The notes: a model not told the origin generated them from the sequence alone. A stretch of 64,000 nt of DNA from Candidatus Uhrbacteria bacterium (GCA_016929435.1 JAFGIV010000026.1:30097-94096); one strand, 5' to 3'. Counted from the stretch's first letter, positions 15,091-28,027 are shown. Numbers and translations are program-made.

Positions 15091-15363
15091 ATTTCGGTTG
15101 GTTTTGATTTATTGTCGCGAAGAACATAGGCCTGAAAACAACCCGTGTCAACATCTATCGGATAAACAAAATTACGCCGTATTTAGCGTAATTTTCCAAT
15201 TCATCCGGTCTGGTTCGGGTATTTTGGGAACGAAAATCGCCTGTTTGCCTGTGGATAATTTCAGGACTTGGATTTCGTCTGGAATAACCTATAATGTTAA
15301 AAGTGATTTGGATGGCATCATTGGCGGACTAAGGAAACACAAAAAAAACTACTCAATAGATGT

Positions 15364-15702
15364 TTGTTTATGAAACGACACGAGATGAAACTGGCGAAAG
15401 TCCCGTTCGACAAGTTGGCGGCCGGGGTGAAGACCGTCGAATCCCGGCTCTACGACGACAAGAGAAGGGGCGTGGCCGTCGGCGACGAGATCGTCTTCAG
15501 GCTCAACGAAAATCCCGAAGTGACGGTAACCAGGAGGGTGGTGTCCCTGCACGTCTATCCGAACTTCAGGTCAATGATGGCCGATCTGCCCGCCGGCCGT
15601 TTCGGCTGGGATACGGCGGAGGAGGCGACGGCGGAAATCGAGCGTCACTATTTCGCGGAAGACCAGGAAAAATTCGGGGTCATCGGCATCGGGTTGGGTT
15701 GA
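15364..15702 (+). CDS. ASCH (PUA-like) domain protein
   Basis: About 110 aa. MKLAKVPFDKLAAGVKTVESRLYDDKRR...VGDEIVF is typical of the ASCH beta-barrel. Confidence 0.6.
   Translation: MFMKRHEMKLAKVPFDKLAAGVKTVESRLYDDKRRGVAVGDEIVFRLNENPEVTVTRRVVSLHVYPNFRSMMADLPAGRFGWDTAEEATAEIERHYFAEDQEKFGVIGIGLG
15670..15702 (+). repeat. Direct repeat copy 1 (33 bp, 32/33 identical to 17299-17331); 3' end of ASCH gene
   Basis: aaattcggggtcatcggcatcgggttgggttga compared with aaattcggggtcatcggcatcgggttggggtga, read directly from the sequence. Confidence 0.85.
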
Positions 15703-15703
15703 A

Positions 15704-15734
15704 AAACCCGCCGGTATATTACCGGCGGGTTTTC
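15704..15734. terminator. Bidirectional rho-independent terminator
   Basis: Perfect inverted repeat aacccgccggt/accggcgggtt flanked by A- and T-runs, between convergent genes. Confidence 0.6.
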
Positions 15735-15742
15735 ACGACACT

Positions 15743-17098
15743 TCACGGAAATGTACGAAATTCAATTACGATTACGCCCAAAGCTTCCTTCTGATCACCG
15801 TAAAACGACTTTAGGATACCGAAAGCTGTTGTGGCAGAATCAGCATCAGGAACTATCTTACCGAAAGGTTCGTTTTTCAATGTCTCTTTGAAACTTGGAT
15901 ATTCTCGTTTGTCTATCACCTTAACGATCAGGGATTCCTCGTACGTCAAGAAACGAATGTTTTCCCCTTTTTTAATTCCTCTGATCGTATCGTAACCGAC
16001 GCGTACTTCAAGCGTTTTCTCGCCGGACTTTATGAAGTCAAAGAATCGTTTTTTTACACGAATTGTTCGTAAGGTATCCTGATTGATATCAAGACTCCAC
16101 TGTTGGGTTACGACATCGGATCGATATGCAGCCGGCAAAATGGCATCGATTTTCCAGCCGTGATGTTGGAGACACACAACCTCAGACGTCGTTGGGGTTA
16201 TGTGCAAATACAATTTACGTCCTCCATAGCCCGACAATTGGAATGGCAAATCGCTCAATAGGGCATTGAAGGCAAGGTCGTTTGAGGCTATCAGGGGCAT
16301 TAATTTGATGAGCGTTCCTTTTTTTGGGATAGCGGCTGCCACCCCTATTACCTTACCCTCGAAATCTGACGCCACAAAGATGAGCTTGTATTTGGAGTTA
16401 ACATCACCGGAGTCTCTGCGCCCGTATCCGGCAAATAGACTCTTAATCCAGACGTCGTCGATTCCGCTGAATGTTTTCGGTAGGGTGCTCAGGATTAATT
16501 GACGCACTTGTCCCATATCCTTGTCCTCTAACGGGAGAACGGAAATGGCTGGTATGTCTTTCTTGATCAGCGCCTCGTTTTCAGACAGTATCTTGTAAAA
16601 CATCAGTTCCCGACTATCCTTTTTGTAGTGACTATATGAACTTCCGGCACACACGAACCCTTGCCGAAGAAAGAAATTCGTGGCCGCCCGATTTTCCTCT
16701 GCTACAGTGCAATACAATTGTCTGGCACTTCGTTTTCGAACATAATTTTCGACATGGGCGTATAGTGCATATCCCAAACCGCACACACCTCGAAATTCTT
16801 CGGAAACTATGAGGGGACTGATTTTATATGTTTGTTGTCGTTTCCCGACCACATGAATCACACCCGCAAGTTGTCCATCGATTTCCCCGACGAACATTCG
16901 TTGTTCGTGAGAGAAGAAACCAATGTGGTCTCGTCCTCCGGCAAGATGCGTACGAATTATCCGCCGGGCACGAGCCTGATGATCGCCATCATAATATGCG
17001 GTCAGAACGCGGACCATGAGATTTGTCACCCAAGTTTCATCGTCGGCTTTTGCCTCTCTAATGTTAATGTACGGTTTTGTTTCCGTTTTCTTTACCAT
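15743..17098 (-). CDS. Tandem GNAT acetyltransferase fused to a C-terminal ASCH domain
   Basis: Two GNAT-like modules (motif A-like VGKRQQ / QGFV, and a second GKVIGVAAA) followed by an ASCH-like C-terminus. GC content is markedly lower than the surrounding genes. Confidence 0.6.
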   Translation of the reverse strand: MVKKTETKPYINIREAKADDETWVTNLMVRVLTAYYDGDHQARARRIIRTHLAGGRDHIGFFSHEQRMFVGEIDGQLAGVIHVVGKRQQTYKISPLIVSEEFRGVCGLGYALYAHVENYVRKRSARQLYCTVAEENRAATNFFLRQGFVCAGSSYSHYKKDSRELMFYKILSENEALIKKDIPAISVLPLEDKDMGQVRQLILSTLPKTFSGIDDVWIKSLFAGYGRRDSGDVNSKYKLIFVASDFEGKVIGVAAAIPKKGTLIKLMPLIASNDLAFNALLSDLPFQLSGYGGRKLYLHITPTTSEVVCLQHHGWKIDAILPAAYRSDVVTQQWSLDINQDTLRTIRVKKRFFDFIKSGEKTLEVRVGYDTIRGIKKGENIRFLTYEESLIVKVIDKREYPSFKETLKNEPFGKIVPDADSATTAFGILKSFYGDQKEALGVIVIEFRTFP

Positions 17099-17298
17099 TT
17101 CTCAACCATCCTTTCTTTCCTCTTTGCTTCTGAACTTTTATGTACTTAAACAAATTTATCTAATTAAGTCAACCCCTCCCCACGTAAAGGGCATAATCAG
17201 AAACGTATGGTATGGCAAAATACACGGATCAGGGCCTCGAATACCGGGTGCTCGGGACCGTCAAGAACGGAATGAAGGTTATCGCCGAGATCAAGATG

Positions 17299-17331
17299 AA
17301 ATTCGGGGTCATCGGCATCGGGTTGGGGTGA
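17299..17331 (+). repeat. Direct repeat copy 2; terminates a 39-aa ORF (17212-17331)
   Basis: Same 33-mer with one substitution. Both copies encode ...KFGVIGIGLG followed by a stop. Confidence 0.85.
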
Positions 17332-17418
17332 GGGTGGGGGTCAGCGGCAACAAAAAGGGCACTTTTGTTTCCGCAAACCGTTTTGCGTCAACAAATATGG
17401 GCGACATTTCGGATTTAT

Positions 17419-20190
17419 TTATTCGTTCAAGATTTCGCTTACTTTTTTGATGGGTGCCCGGAAACGAACGTCTTTGAACTCGGCGAAGTGCCTTTCTCCA
17501 CAAAGCATCTTCATTTGTTCCCTGTCTCGCAGGTTCAAGTCATTTATATCGATCGTTGATTTGGTTTCCGCCACGAAATAGATTTTCTTGTCCCCGTTCA
17601 TCACTATGGCCCAATCCGGGTTGTATTTTCCGATCGGCGTCTCGATCCTGAACCAATAGGGGAGCTTGAAGTAGAACTGGATATCCTCATTTGATTCCAG
17701 GTCTGCGGCAAAACTTTTCTCGATCGCTGAGTCACAGGCAATGTTGTCGAACAGCGTCTTACCGGGATCGGAAACCGAAAAGTTTAGGGGGTCACCCAGA
17801 TAGGCGTAAAGCTCCTCATTTTCGAATTTCTGCATCTCCCATTCCTGTCCGGTAATCTTTTCGTACTTGATCCCGTCTATCATCATCCTGTTTAGGACCG
17901 TGTTGATGGCCGAAACCGCTCCTTCGATGAATTGCTGCGGGTTGACGATGATGTCCGCACCCCGCCCCGACGCCTTGACGATCTCCAGGATGGTGTCCTT
18001 AGTCAGCTTGGTGTGGTCCTGAATTCGGCCCAGGATATCGGGGATCGGCATGGCCCGGGCGTTAAGCCTCTTCGTTTTCGGCTGCCGTTTCATCTTGCCG
18101 ACCACGCCGGTCTCGGCGCTCATCTCCAATGCGGCCCGCCTGGTGACGATGTTCGGGGCCGTCACCGGAATTTCCTTAAGCAATTCGGACGCTTTCCTGA
18201 CCAGTTCTCCGGAATCGTAGTCGACTTGGTAGCGGGTGCGGTGCTTGATGCGGTTCCAGAGATCAAGGAAATTCTGGTCCAGGGCATACCCTTTCCTGAG
18301 TCGGGCGACGACTCGGTTCTGCCGGTTCTTGATTCGGTTGTCGAATCTGACCCCGCTTTCGTCCTCAATTTCCTGCTGGAGCCTTTTTGCGAAATCCTCG
18401 TAGCTTTCGTTGGCCACGACGGTCAGAATGTTTATGCTGTCGTCGAAGATGCGCTGGCCGTCCTGATTGACCGGCAGGCGCATGCCCCGGCCTATCTCCT
18501 GACGTTTCTTCATATCCGATTTCGTCTCGTTCAGGGTGCAGATCTGGAATACGTTAGGATTGTCCCAACCTTCCCGCAGGGCGGAGTGGGAAAAGATGAA
18601 GCGTATCGGTTCGTCCAAAGATAGGAGCCGTTCCTTGTCCTTCATGATCAGGCTGTAGGTATCGTCATCGGCGGCGGTGTTTCCGTTGGTGTCCCTTAGC
18701 CCTTTCTTGTCCACGGAAAAGTACCCGCCGTGGATCTTCTCGGGCGCATGTCCGACCAGTCCGTGGTATTTCGGGTTGGCCTGCATCTTCCGCACGGCAC
18801 CCTCGAACCAGACGGCGATCTTGCCCTTGCCGACCGTCCCGTCTTCTCCGTAGGTGCGGTAGTTGGCCACCCGATCGATGAAGAAAAGGGTCAGGGCCTT
18901 GATGCCCTTGCCCGCCAATTCCAGTTCCTTGTCGAAATGGTTCTCTACGGCCTTAGCCACCTGATAGCGCATCACCTCATCCTTCAGGACATCGTTGTCC
19001 TGTCCGGACCGGAAAACCTGGCCGTTGCTGAAAGTCACGGTTTGGCTATCGACATCGATCTCGTCCACGATGAAGCCGTCCCGGTACAGTTCCCGGCCGT
19101 TTGACAGGCGGAACAGGTCGGAACCGGCCCAAACGGTGACCGTTTTCCGCTCCACCCGCCCCTTACCGCCGCTTTTGTCCGCATCAACGGCAATCTTGGC
19201 CGTAACGACGTTCTTTTTCGACGTTATCGAATCGACCGCCACGAAGGCCTGGTTGATGTCCGCTTCGGCCATCACCGAATCGACCTCGATCCTCTTGACC
19301 AGGCCCAAATCATAGGCCTGGACCGGGTCGAGCCTATACACCTGGTTATAGGGGTTCTTGTGGGTCGCGGAATAGCGGAGGGTGCAGAGGGGATTGAGGT
19401 TCTCGATCGCCTTTCGGCGGATGTCGGTTTCCATGTTCTGCGGTTCGTCCACAATCACGATCGGCCGCACCCCCCTGATGCATTCGATCGGTACGCCCCA
19501 GTCGCTGTCCTGATAGATGATGTTCTGCCCCCGCTTGGACTCGCTGAACTTGGCGAACGAGTCGATGTTGATGACCAGCACCTGTAGGGCGTCGTTCGTG
19601 GCGAAGGCCTTCATCTGCCCCCGTTTTTTCGGGTCATAAACGTGAAAATCGACCTTGGGGCGGCCGTAGATCAGGTCGAAATGGTCCCTGGTGATCTCCA
19701 GGTTCTTCCAGACCCCCTCCTTGACGGCCAAACCGGGAACGACGACGATGAATTTGCGGAAACCGTGCTTCCGGTGAAGTTCATGGATGGTGCGGAGATA
19801 GACGTAGGTCTTCCCGGTGCCGGTTTCCATCTCCACCGTGAAATCTTTCCCCTTCAGCCGGTCCGCCGCCACTAACCCGTTCCGTGCCTGAATCTCCCTC
19901 AGGTTGTTCAACAGAAGCCCCTCATCCAGTCCGGATCCGTTTCCGATGATGAATTCGTTGCAGATCATCATCTGGGCGGTGGGGGACTGAAGCGCCACGC
20001 CGAAATCGTCGTCCCCGAAAGGAACCTGTCCCCGGAACAGGTCGGTCACGGCCTCGATGGCCTTCAGCTGGTATTCCTGTGTGGCGTCGAACTGGAGTTT
20101 CATAGGCTTTTTTAGGGTCGGTGCAAAGAGAATCATCTTATTTTGGCTAAAATTAGCCAAGCATATTTCTCTTTGCATTTGCGTTTGCAA
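17419..20190 (-). CDS. res: Type III restriction-modification system Res subunit (SF2 helicase plus PD-(D/E)xK endonuclease)
   Basis: Walker A ETGTGKT, DEPQ box (IVIVDEPQN), helicase C-terminal motifs, and a C-terminal nuclease motif (YFVAETKS). Confidence 0.85.
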   Translation of the reverse strand: MQTQMQREICLANFSQNKMILFAPTLKKPMKLQFDATQEYQLKAIEAVTDLFRGQVPFGDDDFGVALQSPTAQMMICNEFIIGNGSGLDEGLLLNNLREIQARNGLVAADRLKGKDFTVEMETGTGKTYVYLRTIHELHRKHGFRKFIVVVPGLAVKEGVWKNLEITRDHFDLIYGRPKVDFHVYDPKKRGQMKAFATNDALQVLVINIDSFAKFSESKRGQNIIYQDSDWGVPIECIRGVRPIVIVDEPQNMETDIRRKAIENLNPLCTLRYSATHKNPYNQVYRLDPVQAYDLGLVKRIEVDSVMAEADINQAFVAVDSITSKKNVVTAKIAVDADKSGGKGRVERKTVTVWAGSDLFRLSNGRELYRDGFIVDEIDVDSQTVTFSNGQVFRSGQDNDVLKDEVMRYQVAKAVENHFDKELELAGKGIKALTLFFIDRVANYRTYGEDGTVGKGKIAVWFEGAVRKMQANPKYHGLVGHAPEKIHGGYFSVDKKGLRDTNGNTAADDDTYSLIMKDKERLLSLDEPIRFIFSHSALREGWDNPNVFQICTLNETKSDMKKRQEIGRGMRLPVNQDGQRIFDDSINILTVVANESYEDFAKRLQQEIEDESGVRFDNRIKNRQNRVVARLRKGYALDQNFLDLWNRIKHRTRYQVDYDSGELVRKASELLKEIPVTAPNIVTRRAALEMSAETGVVGKMKRQPKTKRLNARAMPIPDILGRIQDHTKLTKDTILEIVKASGRGADIIVNPQQFIEGAVSAINTVLNRMMIDGIKYEKITGQEWEMQKFENEELYAYLGDPLNFSVSDPGKTLFDNIACDSAIEKSFAADLESNEDIQFYFKLPYWFRIETPIGKYNPDWAIVMNGDKKIYFVAETKSTIDINDLNLRDREQMKMLCGERHFAEFKDVRFRAPIKKVSEILNE

Positions 20191-20202
20191 AGAGGATTTA
20201 TT

Positions 20203-21081
20203 TCAAACGATTTCCGTTCCTATGGGTTTAGGATTGAATATGTAATATTTACAAGCATATTTTAGATATTCCCCAAGTTCATCCAGGTCAATATTTCCTT
20301 TTGTGACATCGTCGGGATAAATGCTGATTATTAGTTTGTCGCATACTGTTTTTTGTTGAACGGCAAATATAAAAGTTCTAATTATGTAATGAACGGAGGT
20401 TTTTCGCGTTAAATTAGTGGCCCTACCATGTCCAGTATTTATTAACGGAATAGTGATGACGTCATCTTTTTCGGCGTCATTCGATAAACTTTCCCACAAT
20501 CCACCGAGGGATGACAAAAAATCATTATTATCAGAAGTACTTCTGTTTTGTAGATTTTTATATGAATTTGCCAATAGATAAAATTTCTTATTTTTTTGTT
20601 CAATTTCTACCATTGACCCAATTGGGTATTTTCCATCGTCACCCCGCAGAAGATCTTTTTTTTGATTTATGTCAGTTATGAGGTGTTCAACTTGCGATGA
20701 ATAGTACCGACAAATAAGTTCATTTAGTATGCTTGGGTTTTTCGCTTTTATAATGTTTCCTCCTTGTGACGGATCAAATTCATTATTGATGGGCACAACA
20801 AGAGCACCTTTATTTTTGTGGGCATTACCAACTTTTATTTCAATCCAAACATCTTTCCCGTCTATTTTAGATCTAAACGTTGATGGAGGCCGTCTGACTA
20901 TTAATACAACAATAAATACGAACACTAAAATAATAACGGTCAAATTTGTATTAATGTTTTTATCTATCCAATCGTGACTTAAATAATTTCCAACGTTAAT
21001 AATCAACCAGATCACGCCTATGGCTGCCAGTGAGGAGTGGGAGATTAATGACAATCTTTTTGACCATCTTTTGCAGTTCAT
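20203..21081 (-). CDS. Membrane-anchored (2 TM) macro-like domain protein; candidate Thoeris-II ThsA-like effector
   Basis: Two N-terminal hydrophobic helices. Downstream the pattern ALVVPINNEF..GGNI (macro Gly-rich loop-like), a central beta strand, then TIPLINTGHGRATN (second phosphate-binding loop-like) matches macro-domain topology. Very AT-rich. A 1-nt gap separates it from the TIR gene. Confidence 0.45.
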   Translation of the reverse strand: MNCKRWSKRLSLISHSSLAAIGVIWLIINVGNYLSHDWIDKNINTNLTVIILVFVFIVVLIVRRPPSTFRSKIDGKDVWIEIKVGNAHKNKGALVVPINNEFDPSQGGNIIKAKNPSILNELICRYYSSQVEHLITDINQKKDLLRGDDGKYPIGSMVEIEQKNKKFYLLANSYKNLQNRSTSDNNDFLSSLGGLWESLSNDAEKDDVITIPLINTGHGRATNLTRKTSVHYIIRTFIFAVQQKTVCDKLIISIYPDDVTKGNIDLDELGEYLKYACKYYIFNPKPIGTEIV

Positions 21082-21082
21082 A

Positions 21083-21586
21083 CTATAGACCTAAACTGCC
21101 ATATACCTGATTTCCATAATAATAGTCTCCGCTTTTTCCTTCAGCTTTGAGTCTGTAATGTTCGTTCACCCAACTATTTATCGCTCGCCCCAGTATTTTT
21201 TGGTTAAAACTAACATGCATGGTCAACACATCGTTTAAGATGGCCGGGCATCTGTCGACGTCTTTGCTCCGTTTCCCATTCAGATTAACCACTACTATCG
21301 GCAAATTTCTATTTATCGCTTGTTCAATTTCCCATCTAACAAATTTATAAAGATATTTTGTGTTTTCTCCGACAAGCAAAACAAAAAGCTTGGCATTATC
21401 AAATCTTTCCCGCAGCTTCGCTTTTATTGTTTCTTCTTGTGAATCGCCCATCAGTTTATTCAAATCATGGGCGTTATGGAAATCGAATGTCGTATTTTCA
21501 CTTTCCTTCCATGCTTGCATCAACCTGTAATAGTGAATATCATTGTCGGCGTCAAAAGCCACGTATGTCTTATTTGCGTAGGCCAT
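21083..21586 (-). CDS. TIR-like domain protein (ThsB/DUF1863-like)
   Basis: N-terminal KTYVAFDADND..YY (FxSxxxxD-like strand A) and LFVLLVGENTKYLYKFVRWEIEQAI (SxW..WEI catalytic-Glu motif) match the bacterial TIR/ThsB pattern. AT-rich. Confidence 0.5.
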   Translation of the reverse strand: MAYANKTYVAFDADNDIHYYRLMQAWKESENTTFDFHNAHDLNKLMGDSQEETIKAKLRERFDNAKLFVLLVGENTKYLYKFVRWEIEQAINRNLPIVVVNLNGKRSKDVDRCPAILNDVLTMHVSFNQKILGRAINSWVNEHYRLKAEGKSGDYYYGNQVYGSLGL

Positions 21587-21643
21587 AGGTATTCTGATGA
21601 GAAATTATTAGCTGATATTCCTGTGCAGAATCTAATCGGCGTT

Positions 21644-23656
21644 TCATAAGTCGTTAATCCGTACCCCAATTTTTTTGGTTTCATCGGTTATAAGTGCGGC
21701 CGTGTTTAGTGCACTGTTTGTTAATCTATCTTTTCTGAGTTTCAGACGGTCATTGATGAAACGATGACGTAATTCAAATTCACTAAAAATCTCGCTCCAT
21801 TTTTTAACGTAAACCTTGTAATTATCGCAATTGAATATAAGACCATTGTGTTTTTCGCCGTGTGGTTTTGCACTCTCCGTTTCTCTTTCGATATATCCTC
21901 TAGAATCAAAAACGGTTCCAATTAGGATAAAGCGCCACATGGACTTTCTGGAATTGAATCTGGGCTCGTTGATTACTACTTCCATGTATCTTTTAATCTG
22001 TGAGACTTCTTTTTCGCCAATTTTTACAGAAGGTTTTTTGAGTTCAATTATAATATTGTCAATAGTATCATCCGTATTATAATTTTGACGACAGAGGAAG
22101 ATGTCCATTTCCTTGTTTTTGTCTGGGTCGTTCATTTTTGAATCGTTGTTATCACTATTGAGCATGTGCTGATAACTCCTAAGGGCAGATTCAAAATCCG
22201 CTTCGGTGGTACATACTAAATTGTACTGTTCTCCGAATAGCCAATAATTGTCGTCTATTATTTTTTGTAGATGATCCCTTTCATTTGCTGATAGAGTTTC
22301 ATTAAAGACGATTTGTTTAAGATATTCCACGGCCGAATAACGATCCGCTACGAGCTTCCCCATTTTGATAATGTTGGAAAGCTCTGTGGCTTCAAGGAGT
22401 TTTTTCAATAGGATTTTATCGTCTCGGTCAAGTTCTAAGACACTGTCTAGAATTGGCAATATCTGCTCTCTTTCATCAGAATCCAGCAACGCATTCAACA
22501 TCCGCATTATTGTCTTTCTTTGACCAGGACTTGCGGCAGTGAACACCTGTGGCTGAATCTTGCAGACGCCCTCAACGACATTTTCTAGATGCTCTTCTCT
22601 TAGCTGGTCCCATGGTGAATCTGAAAAAGTCGGAAATGTACCCTCATCCTTAAGTTTCTTGACGACTTCTGTGGCGTGCTCTACAAGAAACGGTTTTCGT
22701 TTTTTCCGAAGATATTTTCTCATTTCGGACATTAGAAACTTGTATTCGTCATCGTTTCTTGAATGTCCGATAAGTGAGTCTTGGCCTTCAGGCTGGTCGG
22801 GATTGTAACGGAAGTCGTTAAAAAAATCACTTTGTACGTAAATGCTGTGATAGAAACCGTCACCTTTCTTATTTAATTTTGTAGTGTCTTTCCAAACCTC
22901 TTTCGAATGGCTGTTGAGTAGATAATATCTTGAATACTCATTTTGCAACTGTAATGACCACTGTATGTAATTGACTTTGAACCTGGTGCCTGATTCAGCA
23001 TGAACAAAATCAATACAATCCCTATCATTAATTACTTCATCGTATTTGAGCGCCTCGCCGTTAATATAGATTTTGAAATCCTTTGATTTGTAGAGTTCCA
23101 AGAACCAGCCGAACTCTTGCTTTAGGTATCTCTCTGTCTCTTCCGGAGAGAAATTAAAAATTGAATCAAACGTTACCGTGGTGCCTTTGGGCGCAGTCGT
23201 CTTTTTGGACTTTGTCTTCCCGCCCAAGTATTGGTTAGTTTTGTCATCCTCAATTTCTATTTCATATTCATAAACACCGTCCTGCTTTTCATATCTAGTT
23301 AGCCAGCGTGCTTTAGCAGAAAACGAAACAAAGGACAGTCTGCCTATGCCATTTTTACCATGAGTCAACGTTTTGTGCTGATCATCCCTGTTCTTTTTCT
23401 CAGATTCGTAAAACGGTTTAAATTTATGAGAAAGCTCTTCTTGGGGAATGCCGTTACCATTATCTGATATCATGATTCTACTTATATTTCCGATAATATT
23501 TACCCCCTCATAATTTATGTGGACTTCTGAGGCATTGGCGTCAAATCCATTCCAAATGTATTCCGCGATCGCTTGATACGGTTTAAATTTACCGACGATC
23601 TCCTTTACGCCCTTATCGCCAATCTCAATTGTCTCAAAATCTGCTGATAATGGCAT
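21644..23656 (-). CDS. GHKL-family ATPase (MORC/HATPase_c_3-like) with C-terminal restriction-endonuclease-like region
   Basis: Bergerat-fold motifs: N-box EYIWNGFDANASE (ExxxNxxDA), G1 ISDNGNGIP, G2 HGKNGIGRLS. The C-terminal third carries a D...E-L-K arrangement (MDIFLC...IIIELKKP). The start at 23656 lies 4 nt after the mod stop; the track's alternative start at 23710 would overlap mod. Confidence 0.7.
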   Translation of the reverse strand: MPLSADFETIEIGDKGVKEIVGKFKPYQAIAEYIWNGFDANASEVHINYEGVNIIGNISRIMISDNGNGIPQEELSHKFKPFYESEKKNRDDQHKTLTHGKNGIGRLSFVSFSAKARWLTRYEKQDGVYEYEIEIEDDKTNQYLGGKTKSKKTTAPKGTTVTFDSIFNFSPEETERYLKQEFGWFLELYKSKDFKIYINGEALKYDEVINDRDCIDFVHAESGTRFKVNYIQWSLQLQNEYSRYYLLNSHSKEVWKDTTKLNKKGDGFYHSIYVQSDFFNDFRYNPDQPEGQDSLIGHSRNDDEYKFLMSEMRKYLRKKRKPFLVEHATEVVKKLKDEGTFPTFSDSPWDQLREEHLENVVEGVCKIQPQVFTAASPGQRKTIMRMLNALLDSDEREQILPILDSVLELDRDDKILLKKLLEATELSNIIKMGKLVADRYSAVEYLKQIVFNETLSANERDHLQKIIDDNYWLFGEQYNLVCTTEADFESALRSYQHMLNSDNNDSKMNDPDKNKEMDIFLCRQNYNTDDTIDNIIIELKKPSVKIGEKEVSQIKRYMEVVINEPRFNSRKSMWRFILIGTVFDSRGYIERETESAKPHGEKHNGLIFNCDNYKVYVKKWSEIFSEFELRHRFINDRLKLRKDRLTNSALNTAALITDETKKIGVRINDL

Positions 23657-23660
23657 ATCC

Positions 23661-25556
23661 CTACACGCACTCCACCCCCACCCCAACCGATTCCGCCTGG
23701 AGTAGGGCATTGGTCTTTAGCTGGTCATCGCCGCCGAAGGCGGTGTCCAGGCAGATGATCTTTTCCGGCTTGGCGGCTAGGATCTCGTCGAACATCTTCT
23801 TGGTAATCTTATCCGCCAAGCAGACGGCCAGCTTGCCGCCGTCAACGGAATAGTAGTCGATCCTGTCGGCCTTTTTCCTCTCGATCGGCACGTTCAGGTC
23901 CAGGCCGGATTTCAGGATCAGCTCGTAGAGGACATTCTCCTGGGTTGCGCCCTTCTCAAGGTTGTCCCTGAATATCTCCATCTGTTCCAGCAGTTCCTCC
24001 TCCGTCCGGATATCCTGGTTCCAGATCTTGAAGTTGCTTTTCTCCAGCCGGAAAGCCTTAAACCCGATATCCAGCCTCTTCCCGGTCTCCTTATCCGCCA
24101 GCTCACTGACCACCTTCTTCCCGGCCCGCCGAATCCGCTCCTTGGTGATGTCGGCTATCGTCCTGAACCCGGCCTTATGGGCCTCACTGCTCTCGTCCGT
24201 CTCTTCCGGCAGCTGAATGGAGATGCACTTGCGGTTCCCGCCGTCCTCGGCGTTCAGGGCTATGACGGCATGGGCGGTCGTGCCCGATCCGGCGAAGAAG
24301 TCGAGAATCGTATCGTCTTGTTTGCAAGCCAGCTGAATCGCTTTTTTGATAATGCCAGTTGGTTTAGGATTATCAAAAATTCCTTTTCCCACAATGTCCG
24401 CCAATTCTTCGTTGGAAGCATGGGTGTGTCCGACCTCATCAAAACTCCAAACATCTCCAGCGACACGCTCGTCTGGGAGTTCGGCCAAATAAGTTTTTAC
24501 AGATGGGGTTGTTTTCAAGTCTTTTCCAAACCAAAGTCTATTTTCTTCTTCCAGCCTCTTTAGCGTATTTTGACTATAGCGGGGAAATCTCCCCTGGGGT
24601 GCTTTCCAAGTAACTCCATTTTTGAATCTAAAAACATAGCTCTGACCATGACCACTTTTTGCGTGCAGTGGGGTTGCTTTCCATGGACCACGAGTATCAT
24701 CGTCTGGGTTTGTATATCTGTCATTCATTTCTGCGGTTCTTGGTAATCTCAAATCACGAAGATCATCCTTATTTTTGGCAAACAACAAAACATACTCATG
24801 TTGTTTAGATAAATACTTAGTATCATTCGCTACCGTATATTTACTATGCCAGACTATTTCCGTCACAAAATTATTTTCTCCAAACACTTCATTCATCGCC
24901 ATCCTCAAATTGTGAACCTCATGATCATCGATACTCACGAAAATAACCCCATCCTGCCGCAGAAGGTTCCGGGCCAGGAAGAGGCGGGGATAGATCATGT
25001 TCAGCCAGTCGGAATGGTAATGCCCGCGATCGGCGGTGTTGCGGAACAGGCCGTCGGAGCGGCGATTGCCCTCCTCGTCCCTGATTCCGGCTTCCTTCTC
25101 ATATTCGGCCTTGTCCTGCCGGAAACTGTCGTTGTAGATGAAATCGTTCCCGGTGTTGTAGGGCGGATCGATGTAGATCATCTTCACCTTCCCGTAGTAG
25201 GACTTCTGCATGACCTTCAGGGCCTCCAGGTTGTCCCCCTCGATGAAGACGTTCCCGGTCTTGTCGAAATCGACCGATTCCTTCCGGTTCGGCTTGAGGG
25301 TGGCGGCGGTGGAGGACTGGATGGCCCGGAAGCAGCCGGTCTTGCCGTGCCAACTCAGGCCGTATCGCTCCGGTCCGGTTTCGGCCAAATCGCCCAGAGT
25401 CTTCTTCAGGCGGTCGCAATCCACCTGACCTTCGGTGAAAATTTCCGGGAATCGGGACTTGAGGGTTCCCAAAAGGTCGGCTTGGGGGTTCAGGGACCGG
25501 CTATCGATCTTTTTGATATTCTTGGCTTTCTTAAGCGGTTTTCTGGCGATGGTCAT
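23661..25556 (-). CDS. mod: Type III restriction-modification system Mod subunit (N6-adenine/N4-cytosine DNA methyltransferase)
   Basis: Motif IV IYIDPPYNTGNDF and motif I LDFFAGSGTTAHA in beta-class order, with a target-recognition region between them. Confidence 0.85.
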   Translation of the reverse strand: MTIARKPLKKAKNIKKIDSRSLNPQADLLGTLKSRFPEIFTEGQVDCDRLKKTLGDLAETGPERYGLSWHGKTGCFRAIQSSTAATLKPNRKESVDFDKTGNVFIEGDNLEALKVMQKSYYGKVKMIYIDPPYNTGNDFIYNDSFRQDKAEYEKEAGIRDEEGNRRSDGLFRNTADRGHYHSDWLNMIYPRLFLARNLLRQDGVIFVSIDDHEVHNLRMAMNEVFGENNFVTEIVWHSKYTVANDTKYLSKQHEYVLLFAKNKDDLRDLRLPRTAEMNDRYTNPDDDTRGPWKATPLHAKSGHGQSYVFRFKNGVTWKAPQGRFPRYSQNTLKRLEEENRLWFGKDLKTTPSVKTYLAELPDERVAGDVWSFDEVGHTHASNEELADIVGKGIFDNPKPTGIIKKAIQLACKQDDTILDFFAGSGTTAHAVIALNAEDGGNRKCISIQLPEETDESSEAHKAGFRTIADITKERIRRAGKKVVSELADKETGKRLDIGFKAFRLEKSNFKIWNQDIRTEEELLEQMEIFRDNLEKGATQENVLYELILKSGLDLNVPIERKKADRIDYYSVDGGKLAVCLADKITKKMFDEILAAKPEKIICLDTAFGGDDQLKTNALLQAESVGVGVECV

Positions 25557-25704
25557 AGGTGAGGCGGTTTTTAGGAGGGTGGGGGATTGGCAGATAATTT
25601 TACGATGCCTGTATTCTATCGATTTTTAGGCGCAAAAACAAGGGTGAAATTTGAGGAAAAATAGGGTGGATTGTTTACGGAAAATGGGGTAAGATTTTGA
25701 TGTT

Positions 25705-26082
25705 ATGACCTCAAAAACACCGAAACAACTGATGGCACTTCTCAAAGATAAACATTTCCTCCTTTTTGCGCTGGCAATGTTATTTATGATTTTACCCGGC
25801 ATTCCTGCATTTTATTTGTTCCACCGGGAGGAGTTTATGACGATAGATTGGATAAAATTGAGTCTCTTGTCTGCGGCACTTGAGTTACCTATGGTATTTT
25901 TGGGAATATTTATAATGCCGATTTTTTTTGACAACCAGACCGAAAAATCCAAAAAAGACGATTTCTTCTTTGAAGTCGCCTTTTCTGCCTTAAAGAATTT
26001 TTCGGCTTCAAAGAAATTTACTGTTTTGCCACCATCTGCATGGCAGCCATGGCGGTTTTCGCCGCCATCAAATCGTCTATAA
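25705..26082 (+). CDS. Small AT-rich membrane protein (hypothetical)
   Basis: 125 aa with 2-3 predicted TM helices. Its low GC matches the inserted cassette. Confidence 0.3.
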   Translation: MTSKTPKQLMALLKDKHFLLFALAMLFMILPGIPAFYLFHREEFMTIDWIKLSLLSAALELPMVFLGIFIMPIFFDNQTEKSKKDDFFFEVAFSALKNFSASKKFTVLPPSAWQPWRFSPPSNRL

Positions 26083-26153
26083 ATAAAAAAAATAGAATAA
26101 GCCCCATCCCTAATTCCAAACTTTGGAATCAAGAAACGAAGAGTGCCTAATTT

Positions 26154-26843
26154 ATGTCCTCCTTCAAATCCGTTGCCGTCCGTGTCTTGAAAAGGGCGGG
26201 GAAACCGCTGCACAGCAAGAAAATTACCGAGATTGCCCTCGGGAACGGCTGGCTGAAATCGAGCGGCGCTACGCCGTGGGCCACGATGAACGCCCTCCTG
26301 GTTACCGACGTGAATGCCCGAAAGGACAAATCGCCGTTTACCAAAATCGGACCGTCGATTTTCGGACTTAACGCCGAGTTTGTTACCGAGAAACCCGCCA
26401 AAAAATCGGCCTCGGCTCCGATGGACGAGGAATTCGTCAAGCACTCGATCATCAAGTACATCTCCTGCAAGGGGTGGGGCTCGTTCCAGTATGGCGGGTT
26501 GCACGAACACGGTGTCGATATCCGGGCCAAGCAGCAGCGGTATTCCCGATACCTGAACATCGAGACGAAGGGGACATCGGGAAAGGGCTCGGCCAACGAG
26601 ACGGGTTTCGTCTATGGTTTGGGTCAGATTGTCACCCGGATCAGGGACACCGGCAAGACCCGAAACTACTACGGTATCGGCCTGCCGGAATCCTCCGCCC
26701 GAATCGCCCGGCGCCGTTTGCCGTGGCAGGTGGCCAAGAAGCTGCTCCTGTTCGTCTATTCCGTTTCTGCCGACGGCGCGGTGGAGGAGTATTCGTGGAA
26801 AGAATTGAGGAACTCACAGAAGGAGAAAAAGTCCATCTTTTGA
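26154..26843 (+). CDS. HARE-HTH domain plus PD-(D/E)xK nuclease-fold protein (restriction-endonuclease-like)
   Basis: N-terminus KKITEIALGNGWLKSSGATPWATMNALLVTD resembles the HARE-HTH winged helix. A central HGVDIRA...YLNIETKG gives a D-x(n)-E-x-K nuclease motif. Confidence 0.5.
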   Translation: MSSFKSVAVRVLKRAGKPLHSKKITEIALGNGWLKSSGATPWATMNALLVTDVNARKDKSPFTKIGPSIFGLNAEFVTEKPAKKSASAPMDEEFVKHSIIKYISCKGWGSFQYGGLHEHGVDIRAKQQRYSRYLNIETKGTSGKGSANETGFVYGLGQIVTRIRDTGKTRNYYGIGLPESSARIARRRLPWQVAKKLLLFVYSVSADGAVEEYSWKELRNSQKEKKSIF

Positions 26844-26881
26844 AAATAGAACAAAAAAAAACGCCACCTCACTAAACCGAC

Positions 26882-26915
26882 AAAAAAACCACCCGACAGC
26901 GCGGGTGGTTTTTGA
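26882..26915. terminator. Bidirectional rho-independent terminator
   Basis: Inverted repeat accacccg(acagcg)cgggtggt followed by ttttt and preceded by an A-run, between convergent genes. Confidence 0.5.
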
Positions 26916-26932
26916 AAGACCTCCTTTCCACT

Positions 26933-27361
26933 CTACTTATTCAGTTTCAGTAGAGCTTCGCCAAAATAACTTCCGGTATCCCGGGCCTCTTCCCAAGACA
27001 CGTATTTTGTGCGGCCGGTAATACGGATCTTATCCGTCGCTACCCGATACGCCCAGTTTCCGGCCGAAATCTCTTTGGTGAATACCTGAATTTCCTTGTC
27101 GCCAAGGCTCAATTCAAACTCCCACCCCTCGTCTTGAGCCAGTATGACTCCGCGCTCACGGGCCGTCGGCTCGTCGGGCATGTCGTCAAGGATGGTGGTT
27201 ACGATTCCGTCATCCACCACCACCCTCCAGAGTCCGTTTTCCTGTCTGCTTGTGGAAATCAAAGGTTTCACGGGTTCAACCCCTCCATCTCTCCTCCTTT
27301 TGGGTTTTGATTGGAAAAGTCCAATTACCACCTTTTTACCATGTTTTATAAGGACGGTCAA
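26933..27361 (-). CDS. Hypothetical protein
   Basis: 142-aa ORF with plausible globular composition. No recognisable motifs. Confidence 0.35.
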   Translation of the reverse strand: MTVLIKHGKKVVIGLFQSKPKRRRDGGVEPVKPLISTSRQENGLWRVVVDDGIVTTILDDMPDEPTARERGVILAQDEGWEFELSLGDKEIQVFTKEISAGNWAYRVATDKIRITGRTKYVSWEEARDTGSYFGEALLKLNK

Positions 27362-27665
27362 GAATTGACATTGAAATTTTGGCTAAAATGAGCTAAAATA
27401 TTGACTTTAATTGCTATATCACACGTGGGGAACAGGAATAAGAATATTGGGGGGTGTTTCAACCACGCAAAACCGTTATGGGGACTCGTAAGGGACCAAA
27501 AGTCACGGATCACATGATTTAAGCCGGTCGGATAAAACTGTGGTGGCCACAATCTGAAACTACGGGATTCTATAAGTGATGGCCAGGACAACCATCCCGA
27601 GCGATATACCCAACTGACCCCAAAACCCCCGCTTAAGGCCGACAGGCTTATTAAGTGTCGTCTAA

Positions 27666-27680
27666 GGTGTAATGTGCGAC
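27666..27680 (+). repeat. 15-bp direct repeat ggtgtaatgtgcgac (left boundary of the putative integrated element; att/dif-like)
   Basis: Exact 15-mer recurs at 33849-33863. Flanking bases are partly similar (cgtctaa vs cgtaaac). Confidence 0.6.
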
Positions 27681-27778
27681 GCATGAGACACGTACGGTAA
27701 GGTTCCCCTCCCGTTCCGGCCTCCGGCCGGCGGGAAGATAAATTTTTAACCGCCGGGCGCCAGCCCGGAACAAGGGAT

Positions 27779-28027
27779 ATGGGATGTGCGGAAATCAAGA
27801 TATGGAGCTCGAGGGTTCGGGCCTTCCCCCTAGGGCAAAAGGTCTTCGTCAAGGGGTCGTCCTATACCGGCGAGCCGGTCGAGGTGGTCAGCAATCCGTT
27901 CCGGCTATCCGGGGACGACAGGATGAGGGCGTTTGTCCTCATTTCCAACCCGGAGGGCTATTCCGCCGTTGCCGTCCCCTGCTCCGGGCTGGAGCCGGTG
28001 GACTGGATCCCTTCCGGATCCTTATGA
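27779..28027 (+). CDS. Small hypothetical protein in element (possible ssDNA-binding, pV-like size)
   Basis: 82 aa, beta-rich composition. First gene after the left repeat. Confidence 0.2.
   Translation: MGCAEIKIWSSRVRAFPLGQKVFVKGSSYTGEPVEVVSNPFRLSGDDRMRAFVLISNPEGYSAVAVPCSGLEPVDWIPSGSL

What the first reader, a model, noticed from the sequence alone, without database searches (positions are those of the whole stretch)
17419..25556. Type III R-M operon with three AT-rich defence-like genes (GHKL ATPase, TIR, TM-macro) inserted between mod and res
Five genes sit head-to-tail on the minus strand with gaps of 1-57 nt: mod, then a GHKL/MORC-like ATPase with a nuclease-like C-terminus, then a TIR-like protein, then a 2TM-macro-like protein, then res. 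In canonical Type III systems mod and res are adjacent and translationally coupled. Here about 3.4 kb of much lower-GC DNA separates them. The inserted genes look like defence modules: a MORC-type GHKL ATPase, a class previously noted near R-M loci, and a TIR/macro pair resembling NAD-derived-signal immunity. A tightly coupled mod-GHKL-TIR-macro-res operon is not a described architecture as far as I know. It could be a hybrid or co-regulated multi-layer defence locus, or a new R-M-linked abortive-infection system.
Basis: partly seen in the sequence, partly recalled or inferred. Interest (0 to 1): 0.85.

Follow-up and report, generated by a model that had tools for sequence, protein, structure and literature searches.

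The report
Two defence modules nested in Type III restriction operon
A Type III restriction-modification operon carries two already-known anti-phage modules, a GHKL-ATPase nuclease and a type II Thoeris TIR/Macro pair, inserted as foreign low-GC DNA exactly between its mod and res genes, which is a clear example of the known habit of defence genes nesting inside restriction operons rather than a new kind of system.

Summary
Five intact, co-oriented minus-strand genes occupy 17419-25556, and all five domain calls are confirmed by profile searches. A 3,557-nt low-GC block (20104-23660; GC 0.34-0.39, against 0.52-0.56 for mod and res) starts right after the mod stop codon and ends at the res start codon.

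The interpretation as a new R-M-linked system is not supported. The TIR and TM-Macro genes are a textbook type II Thoeris pair (ThsB/ThsA). The GHKL protein fits the paraMORC3 family (GHKL, transducer, C-terminal PD-(D/E)xK nuclease) described in R-M operons in 2008. It has the same layout as VcSduA, a validated single-gene defence.

In other genomes the two cargos occur independently of each other:
- All six closest GHKL relatives examined sit inside Type I, Type III or Type IIG-like R-M operons. About 40% of 81 more distant relatives stand alone.
- About a third of informative ThsB-ThsA loci lie inside Type I operons.
- 17 of 74 related Type III systems carry other cargo between mod and res.

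The exact five-gene order was not found elsewhere. I read it as a nested, probably co-transcribed, three-layer defence locus: a new example of the known "embedded defence systems" phenomenon.

The parts
23661..25556 (-). mod: Type III DNA methyltransferase (631 aa), first gene of the operon
   Evidence: N6_N4_Mtase 9e-42. PADLOC MTase_III PDLC03634 1.9e-206, aligned over residues 16-626 of 631. DPPY and FAGSGTT motifs are visible in the translation. GC3 is 0.81-0.83 in the conserved N- and C-terminal parts.
24252..24989 (-). Low-GC central segment of mod, probably a swapped target-recognition domain
   Evidence: GC 0.44 and GC3 0.41, against 0.81-0.83 in the flanking parts of the same gene. 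That this segment is the target-recognition domain is inferred from its position between the conserved methyltransferase blocks. It was not tested.
21644..23656 (-). GHKL ATPase, transducer-like middle domain and C-terminal PD-(D/E)xK nuclease (670 aa); paraMORC3-type; cargo 1
   Evidence: HATPase_c_3 1.5e-18 and HSDR_N_2; both families hit in 20 of 20 family members. Invariant E32xxxN36xxD39, D65xGxG69, and D518...E538xK540 across 78 homologues. AlphaFold2 model, mean pLDDT 83. Foldseek matches to MutL LN40, MLH1, MORC3/4, GyrB and Hsp90. The ATG lies 4 nt after the mod stop codon.
21083..21586 (-). thsB: TIR-like sensor/signal synthase of type II Thoeris (167 aa); cargo 2
   Evidence: ThsB_TIR 2.3e-20. 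PADLOC ThsB PDLC00429 6.9e-75 over 1-167 of 167. Matches PDB 8V6T at 2.6e-31, full length. WxxxE (W26-E30) and E86 are present in the sequence.
20203..21081 (-). thsA: effector of type II Thoeris with two N-terminal hydrophobic (predicted transmembrane) segments and a C-terminal Macro domain (292 aa); cargo 2
   Evidence: ThsA_Macro 8.5e-28 at residues 80-255. PADLOC ThsA 2.4e-42. A profile of the family matches the ThsA Macro structures 8V6Q and 8R66. Two hydrophobic segments at about aa 10-32 and 41-69. Its start is 1 nt after the thsB stop.
20104..20202 (-). 99-nt AT-rich structured spacer between thsA and res, with a nested stem-loop at 20122-20177 and a small hairpin at 20179-20191
   Evidence: RNA fold -26 kcal/mol, z = -4.2 against 200 shuffles. 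Contains the inverted repeat TTGGCTAA/TTAGCCAA and the 11-bp outer stem TGCAAAGAGAA/TTCTCTTTGCA. No U-tract follows, so it does not look like an intrinsic terminator. It is not conserved in relatives, where the next R-M gene starts 2-6 nt after thsA. Its function is unknown.
17419..20103 (-). res: Type III restriction subunit (894 aa), SF2 helicase-like ATPase plus C-terminal PD-(D/E)xK endonuclease; last gene of the operon
   Evidence: ResIII 9e-13 and RE_endonuc 6e-35. PADLOC REase_III 4.7e-277. NCBIfam type III endonuclease 1.6e-99. TGTGKT, DEPQ and PD...ExK motifs are visible in the translation. The 894-aa form is 100% identical to a protein in the public collection. GC3 0.77.
20104..23660 (.). 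The whole low-GC cargo block inserted between the mod stop codon and the res start codon
   Evidence: GC 0.34-0.39 against 0.52-0.56. GC steps from 0.42 to 0.60 at 23660 and from 0.58 to 0.38 at 20103, each within 60 nt.

Best explanation
The locus is a nested defence island made of three separable, already-known kinds of anti-phage module.

1. The host is a Type III R-M system. Mod methylates its asymmetric site on host DNA. The Mod-Res complex uses Res, an SF2 ATPase with a PD-(D/E)xK nuclease, to cut unmethylated invading DNA.

2. Directly after mod sits a paraMORC3-type protein. A GHKL ATPase with a transducer domain is presumed to gate a C-terminal PD-(D/E)xK nuclease. By analogy with VcSduA it would act as a stand-alone, direct DNA-targeting defence. 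It could additionally cooperate with the R-M enzyme.

3. Next comes a type II Thoeris pair. ThsB (TIR) senses infection and makes a histidine-ADP-ribose signal from NAD+. The Macro domain of ThsA binds the signal, and its two predicted transmembrane helices then cause growth arrest or cell death.

The two cargos arrived by horizontal transfer from low-GC donors into the mod|res junction, which is a recurrent insertion slot in this Type III clade. They are probably transcribed together with mod and res from the promoter upstream of mod.

Shown here: gene identities, intact catalytic motifs, foreign composition with exact boundaries, independence of the cargos in other genomes, and recurrence of embedding.

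Inferred, not shown: the biochemical activities, co-transcription, and the benefit. The likely benefits are layered immunity and linked inheritance.
For: Identities of the genes:
- Pfam, PADLOC and NCBIfam hits for all five proteins.
- ThsB and ThsA match solved macro-Thoeris structures.
- The GHKL model matches MutL, MORC, GyrB and Hsp90, and the D-ExK motif is invariant in 78 homologues.

Foreign origin of the cargo:
- GC and GC3 steps fall exactly at the mod stop codon and the res ATG.

Independence of the two cargos:
- None of 81 GHKL loci has a ThsA or ThsB homologue within about 10 kb.
- None of 73 ThsA loci has a GHKL protein or a Type III mod/res.

GHKL recurs inside R-M operons:
- L001 mod-GHKL-res; L002 and L158 hsdR-GHKL-hsdM; L156 and L157 hsdM-GHKL-hsdS; one locus with a PLD-helicase, an MmeI-like methyltransferase and GHKL.
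- At least 11 of 81 loci lie inside Type I operons, and 33 of 81 stand alone.

This ThsB-ThsA clade recurs inside Type I R-M:
- L085, L090, L103, L118, L119, L121, L123, L135, L136 and others.

The mod|res junction is a cargo slot:
- 17 of 74 IMG/VR (viral contig collection) Type III relatives have at least 300 nt between mod and res. Inserted genes include RhuM, YhcG nuclease, Fic/DOC, Bro-N, PLD and Abi_C.
- The closest Res relative has mod, a 74-aa ORF, an SDH_protease gene and then res. Another has mod, an AAA_15 ATPase, res, a DUF4357 gene and then GHKL.

Co-transcription is plausible:
- All five genes are co-oriented with gaps of 4, 57, 1 and 99 nt, and no terminator-like site was found on the minus strand.

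Literature:
- paraMORC3 in R-M systems (PMC2292703).
- VcSduA works alone and needs both its ATPase and its nuclease (PMC12137116).
- 602 Shedu genes lie within Type I-IV R-M loci (bioRxiv 10.1101/2023.08.10.552793).
- Embedded defence systems are co-oriented with their host in 96.7% of cases (bioRxiv 10.1101/2024.01.29.577857).
- His-ADPR signalling in type II Thoeris (bioRxiv 10.1101/2024.01.03.573942).
Against: - No expression or activity data exist for this locus.
- Promoter-like hits are not enriched over shuffled sequence (16 found, 13.2 +/- 2.9 expected), so the transcript structure is open.
- The 99-nt structured spacer before res (z = -4.2) could be a regulatory or processing element. 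It could uncouple res from the upstream genes.
- The GHKL family is not recognised by PADLOC v2, even at E <= 10.
- The nuclease domain is called HSDR_N_2, not DUF4263, by Pfam. Equating this protein with the validated VcSduA/Shedu therefore rests on shared architecture, not on demonstrated homology.
- All six closest GHKL relatives examined are R-M-embedded with tight or overlapping gene junctions. That equally fits a role as an accessory R-M subunit.
- The donor of the cargo, and a matching empty mod-res site, were not found. The closest Res is only 61% identical.
Confidence: 0.72

Rival explanations
1. Only Thoeris is cargo. The GHKL-nuclease is an integral accessory subunit of this Type III enzyme, as Iyer et al. 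proposed for paraMORCs: an ATP-driven clamp or looping factor that links recognition and cleavage. On this view mod-GHKL-res is the functional unit.
For: - mod-GHKL-res without Thoeris exists in L001, and all three proteins are similarly diverged from the window's (50%, 52% and 55% identity).
- The GHKL ATG is 4 nt after the mod stop.
- All six closest GHKL relatives examined lie inside R-M operons, often with overlapping or near-abutting gene ends.
- Iyer et al. 2008 proposed exactly this role (PMC2292703).
Against: - GHKL has cargo-like GC3 (0.40) while mod and res have 0.77-0.83, so it has not shared their history in this genome.
- The same family sits in Type I, Type III and Type IIG-like operons at different positions. 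It also stands alone in 33 of 81 loci, some next to serine recombinases on mobile elements.
- 57 of 74 related Type III systems have mod and res directly adjacent, so they do without it.
- The architecturally equivalent VcSduA defends on its own (PMC12137116).
Confidence: 0.18
2. Guard (PrrC-like) wiring. The embedded Thoeris pair, the GHKL nuclease or both are held silent by, or monitor, the Mod/Res complex. They fire when a phage anti-restriction protein disables it.
For: - Both cargo families are embedded in R-M operons unusually often. About 13 of roughly 40 informative ThsB-ThsA loci lie inside Type I operons, at different junctions. All six closest GHKL relatives examined are embedded.
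- There is a precedent in PrrC within EcoprrI, discussed in bioRxiv 10.1101/2024.01.29.577857.
Against: - Both families also occur commonly with no R-M neighbour.
- Type II Thoeris systems work when cloned alone in heterologous hosts (bioRxiv 10.1101/2024.01.03.573942; 10.64898/2026.01.22.701046).
- The host R-M types differ (I and III), so a specific protein-protein guard interface is unlikely.
- The metagenome sample is biased toward small genomes with compact defence loci.
Confidence: 0.1
3. A single new five-gene R-M-linked abortive-infection system whose parts depend on one another.
For: Tight co-oriented spacing and the absence of predicted terminators on the coding strand. The exact arrangement is not described in the papers read.
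Against: - The arrangement is not conserved. No second instance appeared among 442 GHKL relatives in 185,579 species genomes (best 80 inspected), 69 metagenomic ThsA loci, or 80 IMG/VR Type III loci.
- Every part has a complete, self-sufficient family assignment.
- The composition shows the parts have different histories.
Confidence: 0.04
4. Assembly chimera. The low-GC block was mis-joined into a high-GC contig during metagenome assembly.
For: Abrupt GC steps of about 0.2 within 60 nt at both ends. The sequence appears to come from a metagenome-assembled genome: proteins identical to the window's are labelled Candidatus Uhrbacteria and come from a 97,620-bp contig.
Against: - Both junctions fall exactly at gene boundaries, 4 nt after the mod stop and at the res ATG. 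All five ORFs stay intact and in one orientation.
- The flanks are the two matching halves of one Type III system.
- The same kind of arrangement is seen in independent assemblies (L001, L159/L160, L161/L162).
Confidence: 0.03

Closest known systems
Defence systems 'embedded' within other defence operons (Payne, Hughes, Fineran & Jackson 2024, bioRxiv 10.1101/2024.01.29.577857). The classical case is prrC inside the EcoprrI Type I R-M operon.
   Same: Cargo genes lie between the genes of a multi-gene host system and in the same orientation. The cargos are known defence systems that also occur non-embedded elsewhere. The host operon stays intact.
   Different: That study surveyed Hma, BREX, DISARM and Type I R-M, not Type III. 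Here two unrelated cargos sit in one junction. Thoeris was not found as embedded cargo in the text or in the held (truncated) supplement files.
paraMORC3 family of GHKL ATPases in R-M systems (Iyer, Abhiman & Aravind 2008, PMC2292703)
   Same: N-terminal GHKL domain with intact ATP-binding motifs, a middle transducer (S5-like) domain, and a C-terminal restriction-endonuclease-fold domain with a D-ExK motif. Distribution is sporadic, either in R-M operons or standalone in Bacteroidota and Proteobacteria.
   Different: No reference paraMORC3 sequence was available for direct comparison. The assignment rests on matching all the described features.
VcSduA / Shedu type I-D (GHKL N-terminal domain plus PD-(D/E)xK nuclease; PMC12137116; bioRxiv 10.1101/2023.08.10.552793)
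   Same: Same domain order and similar size. The catalytic Glu lies in the first GHKL motif (E32 here, E27 in VcSduA) and the nuclease Lys near residue 540-557 (K540 here, K557 there). Shedu genes are reported inside Type I, II, III and IV R-M loci.
   Different: Pfam calls the nuclease domain HSDR_N_2, not DUF4263, in 20 of 20 family members. PADLOC's models (v2.0.0), which should include Shedu, do not hit. A domain-only structure search gave only weak, generic PD-(D/E)xK matches and no Shedu.
Type II Thoeris (ThsB TIR plus ThsA TM-Macro; Sabonis et al., bioRxiv 10.1101/2024.01.03.573942; structures 8V6Q-8V6T, PMC11204291)
   Same: Full-length matches to ThsB and ThsA profiles and to the solved structures. 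The two genes are adjacent, ThsA has two N-terminal hydrophobic segments, and ThsB has the WxxxE motif.
   Different: It is located inside an R-M operon. It is only 39-48% (ThsA) and 56-74% (ThsB) identical to its nearest relatives. The signal molecule and the outcome (cell death or growth arrest) are untested.
Canonical Type III R-M systems (EcoP1I/EcoP15I type)
   Same: mod lies upstream of res on one strand. Mod has the N6-adenine methyltransferase motifs, and Res has an SF2 ATPase and a C-terminal PD-(D/E)xK nuclease.
   Different: mod and res are separated by 3.56 kb of cargo instead of being adjacent. res is preceded by a structured 99-nt leader.

Membership tests
Type III restriction-modification system | Mod subunit: an N6_N4-family DNA methyltransferase with the DPPY and FxGxG motifs | tested here: met
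   PF01555 9e-42; PADLOC MTase_III 1.9e-206, full length. 'IDPPYNTG' and 'FFAGSGTT' are present in the translation.
Type III restriction-modification system | Res subunit: an SF2 helicase-like ATPase plus a PD-(D/E)xK endonuclease domain | tested here: met
   ResIII, DEAD and RE_endonuc. PADLOC REase_III 4.7e-277. NCBIfam PRK15483 1.6e-99, which is below that model's equivalog cut-off.
Type III restriction-modification system | mod immediately upstream of res (adjacent or coupled genes) | tested here: not met
   The genes are separated by 3,557 nt holding three genes. Adjacency is usual but not universal: 17 of 74 related loci also have at least 300 nt between mod and res, and 16 of these hold co-oriented ORFs.
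Type III restriction-modification system | Hemimethylation of an asymmetric site and ATP-dependent cleavage | not testable with these tools
   Needs methylome sequencing and biochemistry.
Type II Thoeris | ThsB: a TIR-like protein (PF08937) with conserved catalytic features | tested here: met
   ThsB_TIR 2.3e-20; PADLOC ThsB 6.9e-75 over the whole protein. Matches PDB 8V6T at 2.6e-31. W26xxxE30 and E86 are present. The WxxxE motif was shown to be essential in an E. coli ThsB2 (bioRxiv 10.64898/2026.01.22.701046).
Type II Thoeris | ThsA: N-terminal transmembrane helices plus a C-terminal ThsA-type Macro domain | tested here: met
   PF20016 8.5e-28 at residues 80-255. A profile of the family matches the ThsA Macro structures 8V6Q and 8R66. 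Two hydrophobic segments at about aa 10-32 and 41-69.
Type II Thoeris | thsB and thsA are adjacent and co-oriented | tested here: met
   1-nt gap. The pair is kept together in essentially all related loci.
Type II Thoeris | Infection-triggered His-ADPR signal activates ThsA | not testable with these tools
   Known for the Bacillus systems (bioRxiv 10.1101/2024.01.03.573942); inferred here.
paraMORC3 (Iyer et al. 2008) | N-terminal GHKL domain with conserved ATP-binding motifs | tested here: met
   HATPase_c_3 in 20 of 20 members. E32xxxN36xxD39, D65xGxG69 and G100-G105 are invariant in 78 sequences.
paraMORC3 (Iyer et al. 2008) | S5/transducer domain after the GHKL domain | tested here: met
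   The model (mean pLDDT 83) aligns over 300-334 columns with MutL LN40 and MLH1 N-terminal fragments, which hold the GHKL and transducer domains, and with MORC3/4 and GyrB43. TM-scores are modest (0.41-0.46, normalised to target length).
paraMORC3 (Iyer et al. 2008) | Conserved C-terminal restriction-endonuclease-fold domain with E-D-ExK | tested here: met
   HSDR_N_2 in 20 of 20 members. D518, E538 and K540 are invariant; E476 and E485 are nearly invariant.
paraMORC3 (Iyer et al. 2008) | Sporadic distribution: in R-M operons, or standalone in Bacteroidota and Proteobacteria | tested here: met
Shedu (type I-D, VcSduA-like) | Shedu nuclease domain DUF4263 (PF14082) | tested here: not met
   No DUF4263 hit at E <= 10 on the C-terminal domain, nor at E <= 0.1 in 20 family members. 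No PADLOC hit to any defence model relevant to a nuclease or ATPase at E <= 10; the only hit was a weak DRT-associated model, E 0.038, on the C-terminal fragment. The domain-only model (mean pLDDT 67) gave only weak, generic PD-(D/E)xK matches and no Shedu, so the structural side is inconclusive.
Shedu (type I-D, VcSduA-like) | N-terminal GHKL ATPase plus Hsp90/MORC-like middle domain that regulates the nuclease | tested here: met
   The regulatory role itself is inferred.
Eukaryote-type MORC family proper | The MORC-specific sequence motif that unites MORCs and is absent from paraMORCs (PMC2292703) | not tested
Only fold-level similarity to MORC3/4 was seen, among many GHKL proteins.
Embedded defence system (Payne et al. 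2024) | Cargo lies between genes of an otherwise complete host defence system, in the same orientation | tested here: met
Embedded defence system (Payne et al. 2024) | Cargo families also occur non-embedded, so they are capable of independent function | tested here: met
   GHKL stands alone in 33 of 81 loci. ThsB-ThsA occurs without R-M neighbours in many loci.
PrrC-like guard of an R-M system | Cargo activity is repressed by the host R-M complex and triggered when that complex is inhibited | not testable with these tools
   Only contextual enrichment is available.

The most novel reading that the evidence does not exclude
The cargos are not just passengers. The mod|res junction of this Type III clade, and the hsd junctions of Type I systems, act as a dedicated slot. 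There, a particular clade of type II Thoeris and the paraMORC3 nuclease are functionally wired to the restriction enzyme. One form of this would be PrrC-like back-ups that fire when phage anti-restriction proteins disable Mod/Res. The structured 99-nt leader would set res expression relative to the cargo.
Probability: 0.1. Interest if true: 0.65.

Novelty: new member of a known kind. Interest (0 to 1): 0.3.

Why it matters
The locus is a clean, well-bounded natural example of three immune layers packed into one operon: DNA restriction, an ATPase-gated nuclease, and TIR signalling with a membrane effector.

Three side results may be useful to people cataloguing defence systems:
- About a fifth to a quarter of related Type III systems carry cargo between mod and res. 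This host type was not covered by the published "guilt-by-embedding" survey.
- A Thoeris II clade is embedded in R-M operons unusually often.
- The widespread paraMORC3 GHKL-nuclease family is not recognised by PADLOC v2.

Mining mod|res junctions could therefore yield further defence candidates. The locus itself does not reveal a new mechanism.

Tried and rejected
1. A second copy of the five-gene order. I looked among GHKL relatives in 185,579 species genomes (442 hits, best 80 inspected), ThsA relatives in JGI metagenomes (69 loci) and Res relatives in IMG/VR (80 loci). None was found.

2. The donor, or an empty mod-res site. The closest relatives are only 53% (GHKL), 48% (ThsA) and 61% (Res) identical. 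blastn of the cargo against plasmids and phages gave only one 309-nt TIR match at 68.5% identity.

3. Shedu membership of the GHKL protein. Pfam and PADLOC were negative. The domain-only AlphaFold model was of low confidence (mean pLDDT 67) and its Foldseek hits were weak. I could not obtain the VcSduA sequence for a direct comparison.

4. A conserved motif or recombination site downstream of thsA across relatives. None was found; in embedded relatives the next gene starts 2-6 nt after thsA.

5. Rfam families in 17.0-26.5 kb. The only hit was a Histone3 stem-loop below the gathering threshold, which I take as chance.

6. Promoter and terminator scans. Counts were not above shuffled expectation, so they do not settle the transcript structure.

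7. A GHKL-TIR functional link like paraMORC4. Rejected: none of 73 ThsB-ThsA loci has a GHKL neighbour.

8. The Payne et al. supplement, searched for Thoeris and HATPase_c_3. Nothing appeared in the held, truncated files.

It was repeated on the 20-sequence alignment A1.

Full report
**Observation**

Five ORFs lie head-to-tail on the minus strand at exactly the reported coordinates.
- Profile searches confirm all five domain calls. mod is N6_N4_Mtase and PADLOC MTase_III (1.9e-206). The second gene is HATPase_c_3 with a weak C-terminal HSDR_N_2 hit. The third is ThsB_TIR and PADLOC ThsB (6.9e-75, end to end). The fourth is ThsA_Macro and PADLOC ThsA (2.4e-42). res is ResIII plus RE_endonuc and PADLOC REase_III (4.7e-277).
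- The homology-supported starts are ATG 23656 for GHKL and ATG 20103 for res. They give the 670-aa and 894-aa proteins that are 100% identical to proteins in the public collection (sources NCBI/nr).
- With those starts the gaps are 4, 57, 1 and 99 nt.
- Catalytic motifs are intact in all five proteins.

**Composition**

- The block 20104-23660 (3,557 nt) has GC 0.34-0.39 and GC3 (third-codon-position GC) 0.30-0.41.
- res has GC 0.555 and GC3 0.77. The conserved N- and C-terminal parts of mod have GC3 0.81-0.83. Unrelated genes elsewhere in the window have GC3 0.70-0.77.
- The change happens within one 60-nt window at each end. One step is right after the mod stop codon and the other is at the res ATG.
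- So mod and res look native or long-resident, and the three middle genes are recent imports.
- The middle of mod (24252-24989; GC3 0.41) is also foreign-looking. This is what a swapped target-recognition domain would look like; that reading is an inference.

**The TIR/Macro pair**

- ThsB matches the solved macro-Thoeris ThsB structure 8V6T (2.6e-31, full length). A profile of ThsA relatives matches the ThsA Macro structures 8V6Q and 8R66.
- ThsA has two N-terminal hydrophobic segments.
- This is a type II Thoeris system. In that system the TIR protein makes His-ADPR, which binds the ThsA Macro domain (bioRxiv 10.1101/2024.01.03.573942).
- The downstream effect depends on the transmembrane helices. 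It has been described either as abortive infection or as growth arrest (bioRxiv 10.64898/2026.01.22.701046).

**The GHKL protein**

- It has 1,816 homologues (E <= 1e-5) of uniform length, about 660-690 aa, across many phyla.
- In 78 of them the GHKL motifs (E32xxxN36xxD39, D65xGxG69, G100-G105) and a C-terminal D518...E538xK540 are invariant.
- All 20 members scanned hit both HATPase_c_3 and HSDR_N_2.
- A full-length AlphaFold2 model (mean pLDDT 83) matches MutL LN40, MLH1, MORC3/4, GyrB43 and Hsp90. That means a GHKL domain plus a transducer domain.
- This fits, feature by feature, the paraMORC3 family that Iyer, Abhiman and Aravind described in R-M operons, and as standalone genes, in 2008 (PMC2292703).
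- Proteins of this layout were recently tied to Shedu type I-D. One of them, VcSduA, is a validated single-gene, non-abortive defence that needs both its ATPase Glu and its nuclease Lys (PMC12137116; bioRxiv 10.1101/2023.08.10.552793).
- I could not show that the window's protein has the Shedu DUF4263 domain. Pfam and PADLOC are negative. A domain-only model was of low confidence and gave only weak, generic PD-(D/E)xK matches.
- I therefore file it as paraMORC3-type and "works like VcSduA", with Shedu membership unproven.

**Are the three inserted genes a unit? No.**

- Among 81 GHKL loci, none has a ThsA or ThsB homologue within about 10 kb.
- Among 73 ThsA loci, none has a GHKL protein or a Type III mod/res.

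Contexts of GHKL:
- All six of its closest relatives that I examined (50-53% identity) sit inside R-M operons. These are mod-GHKL-res (L001), hsdR-GHKL-hsdM(-hsdS) (L002, L158), hsdM-GHKL-hsdS-Fic-hsdR (L156), hsdM-GHKL-hsdS plus a Panacea toxin-antitoxin module (L157), and a PLD-helicase with an MmeI-like methyltransferase and GHKL.
- Among the 81 more distant loci, at least 11 are inside Type I operons, often with further embedded genes.
- 33 of the 81 are solitary, several next to serine recombinases.

Contexts of ThsB-ThsA:
- About 13 distinct loci lie inside Type I operons, at different junctions (hsdM|hsdS, hsdS|hsdR, hsdM|hsdR). The next hsd gene often starts 2-6 nt after thsA.
- Many other loci have no R-M neighbour.

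**Is cargo between mod and res unusual? Only moderately.**

- The closest Res relative (60% identity, L161) has mod, a 74-aa ORF, an SDH_protease gene and then res.
- Another (L159/L160) has mod, an AAA_15 ATPase, res, a DUF4357 gene, GHKL and a small Macro gene.
- In 74 IMG/VR (viral contig collection) loci with a resolvable mod upstream of a related res, 57 pairs are adjacent. The other 17 (23%) have at least 300 nt between them, and 16 of those contain co-oriented ORFs.
- The inserted genes are diverse and defence- or toxin-like: RhuM (four loci), a YhcG/DUF1016 nuclease, Fic/DOC, Bro-N, PLD-like and Abi_C (two loci).
- IMG/VR is a biased sample, and some of these loci are near-duplicates.

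**Mechanism**

The best-supported reading is a nested locus with three layers:
1. Type III restriction of unmethylated DNA.
2. An ATPase-gated PD-(D/E)xK nuclease acting on its own, or possibly alongside the R-M enzyme.
3. Thoeris II signalling that leads to membrane-linked arrest or death.

- All five genes are co-oriented and no terminator-like site lies on the coding strand. A single transcript from upstream of mod is therefore plausible but unproven, and promoter-like hits are not enriched.
- The 99-nt spacer before res folds into a nested stem-loop. The fold energy is -26 kcal/mol with z = -4.2, and no U-tract follows. The element is specific to this locus. Its role is unknown.
- Published ideas for why embedding persists are linked inheritance, co-regulation and back-up immunity (bioRxiv 10.1101/2024.01.29.577857).

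**Rivals**

- GHKL as a true accessory subunit of the R-M enzyme (0.18). Its tight coupling and the L001 trio support this. Its cargo-like GC3, its promiscuous contexts and its standalone copies argue against.
- A PrrC-like guard relationship (0.10). Only contextual enrichment supports it.
- A new interdependent five-gene system (0.04). The arrangement is not conserved anywhere I looked.
- An assembly chimera (0.03). The junctions fall exactly at gene boundaries and analogous loci exist in independent assemblies.

**Novelty and score**

- Every component belongs to a described family.
- Nesting of defence genes in defence operons is described. This includes Shedu-type nucleases inside Type III R-M loci and paraMORCs in R-M operons.
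- I did not find this particular combination, two unrelated cargos in the mod|res junction, elsewhere or in the papers read.
- That makes it a new member of a known kind.
- Interest is 0.3. It is a neat example with some useful by-products for defence-system cataloguing, but not a surprise to a specialist.

Noticed in passing
window 15653-15702 and 17282-17331: Two 50-nt imperfect direct repeats (82% identical, both ending in TGA) bracket the GNAT+ASCH gene (15743-17098, minus strand) just downstream of res. The arrangement looks like a duplicated gene end left by the insertion of a 1.6-kb cassette.
   Followed up: partly
window 26154-26843 (+), with a small ORF at 25705-26082 (+): A HARE-HTH protein (PF05066, 1e-16) is encoded divergently about 600 nt upstream of mod. 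This is a DNA-binding domain often linked to restriction and DNA-modification loci. It could be a regulator of the operon or another island gene.
   Followed up: no
window 20140-20160 and 27376-27396: The 21-nt sequence that contains the TTGGCTAA/TTAGCCAA inverted repeat of the thsA-res spacer recurs at 90% identity, 7.2 kb away. The second copy lies at the junction of two unannotated minus-strand ORFs. This may be chance or a shared operator.
   Followed up: no
window about 15000-28000: The operon sits in a larger region of lowered and patchy GC (0.39-0.58, against 0.60-0.68 in the flanks). The region holds several ORFs with no Pfam or PADLOC hit, no tRNA gene and no integrase. It is probably a genomic island with unclear borders.
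   Followed up: partly
whole window: Proteins identical to the window's are labelled 'Candidatus Uhrbacteria bacterium' (97,620-bp contig). The window also encodes a MacB-type ABC exporter, an RND-type periplasmic adaptor and a protein with a cysteine-rich repeat named for myxobacteria. Its flanks have GC around 0.63. The taxonomic bin may deserve a check.
   Followed up: no
L085 4970-12957; also L090, L103, L118, L119, L121, L123, L135, L136: The same ThsB-ThsA clade is repeatedly embedded inside Type I R-M operons in Patescibacteria and groundwater-type metagenomes. It sits at different hsd junctions, sometimes together with a Bro-N gene. This is roughly a third of the informative loci, which seems high for a known defence system.
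   Followed up: partly
L159 5668-15137 (and L160): A related Type III operon reads mod, AAA_15 ATPase, res, DUF4357, GHKL (paraMORC3-type) and a 148-aa stand-alone Macro protein (PF01661), all tightly spaced. A Macro gene next to the GHKL gene echoes the window's GHKL followed by TIR and TM-Macro, but with a different Macro family.
   Followed up: no
GHKL family (P0001-P0120; L003-L082): This widespread GHKL-nuclease family has 1,816 homologues, and 442 relatives were found among 185,579 species genomes. Annotators label it only 'ATP-binding protein', and it gets no hit in PADLOC-DB v2.0.0 even though it is often embedded in R-M operons.
   Followed up: partly
Type I R-M loci with GHKL (L009, L010, L035, L066, L037, L069): A protein of about 500 aa recurs next to the GHKL gene, both inside and outside Type I operons. 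By eye it resembles the AlbA_2/HATPase_c_4 'RecG-like' putative DNA-binding proteins that are among the top embedded families in the Payne et al. supplement.
   Followed up: no
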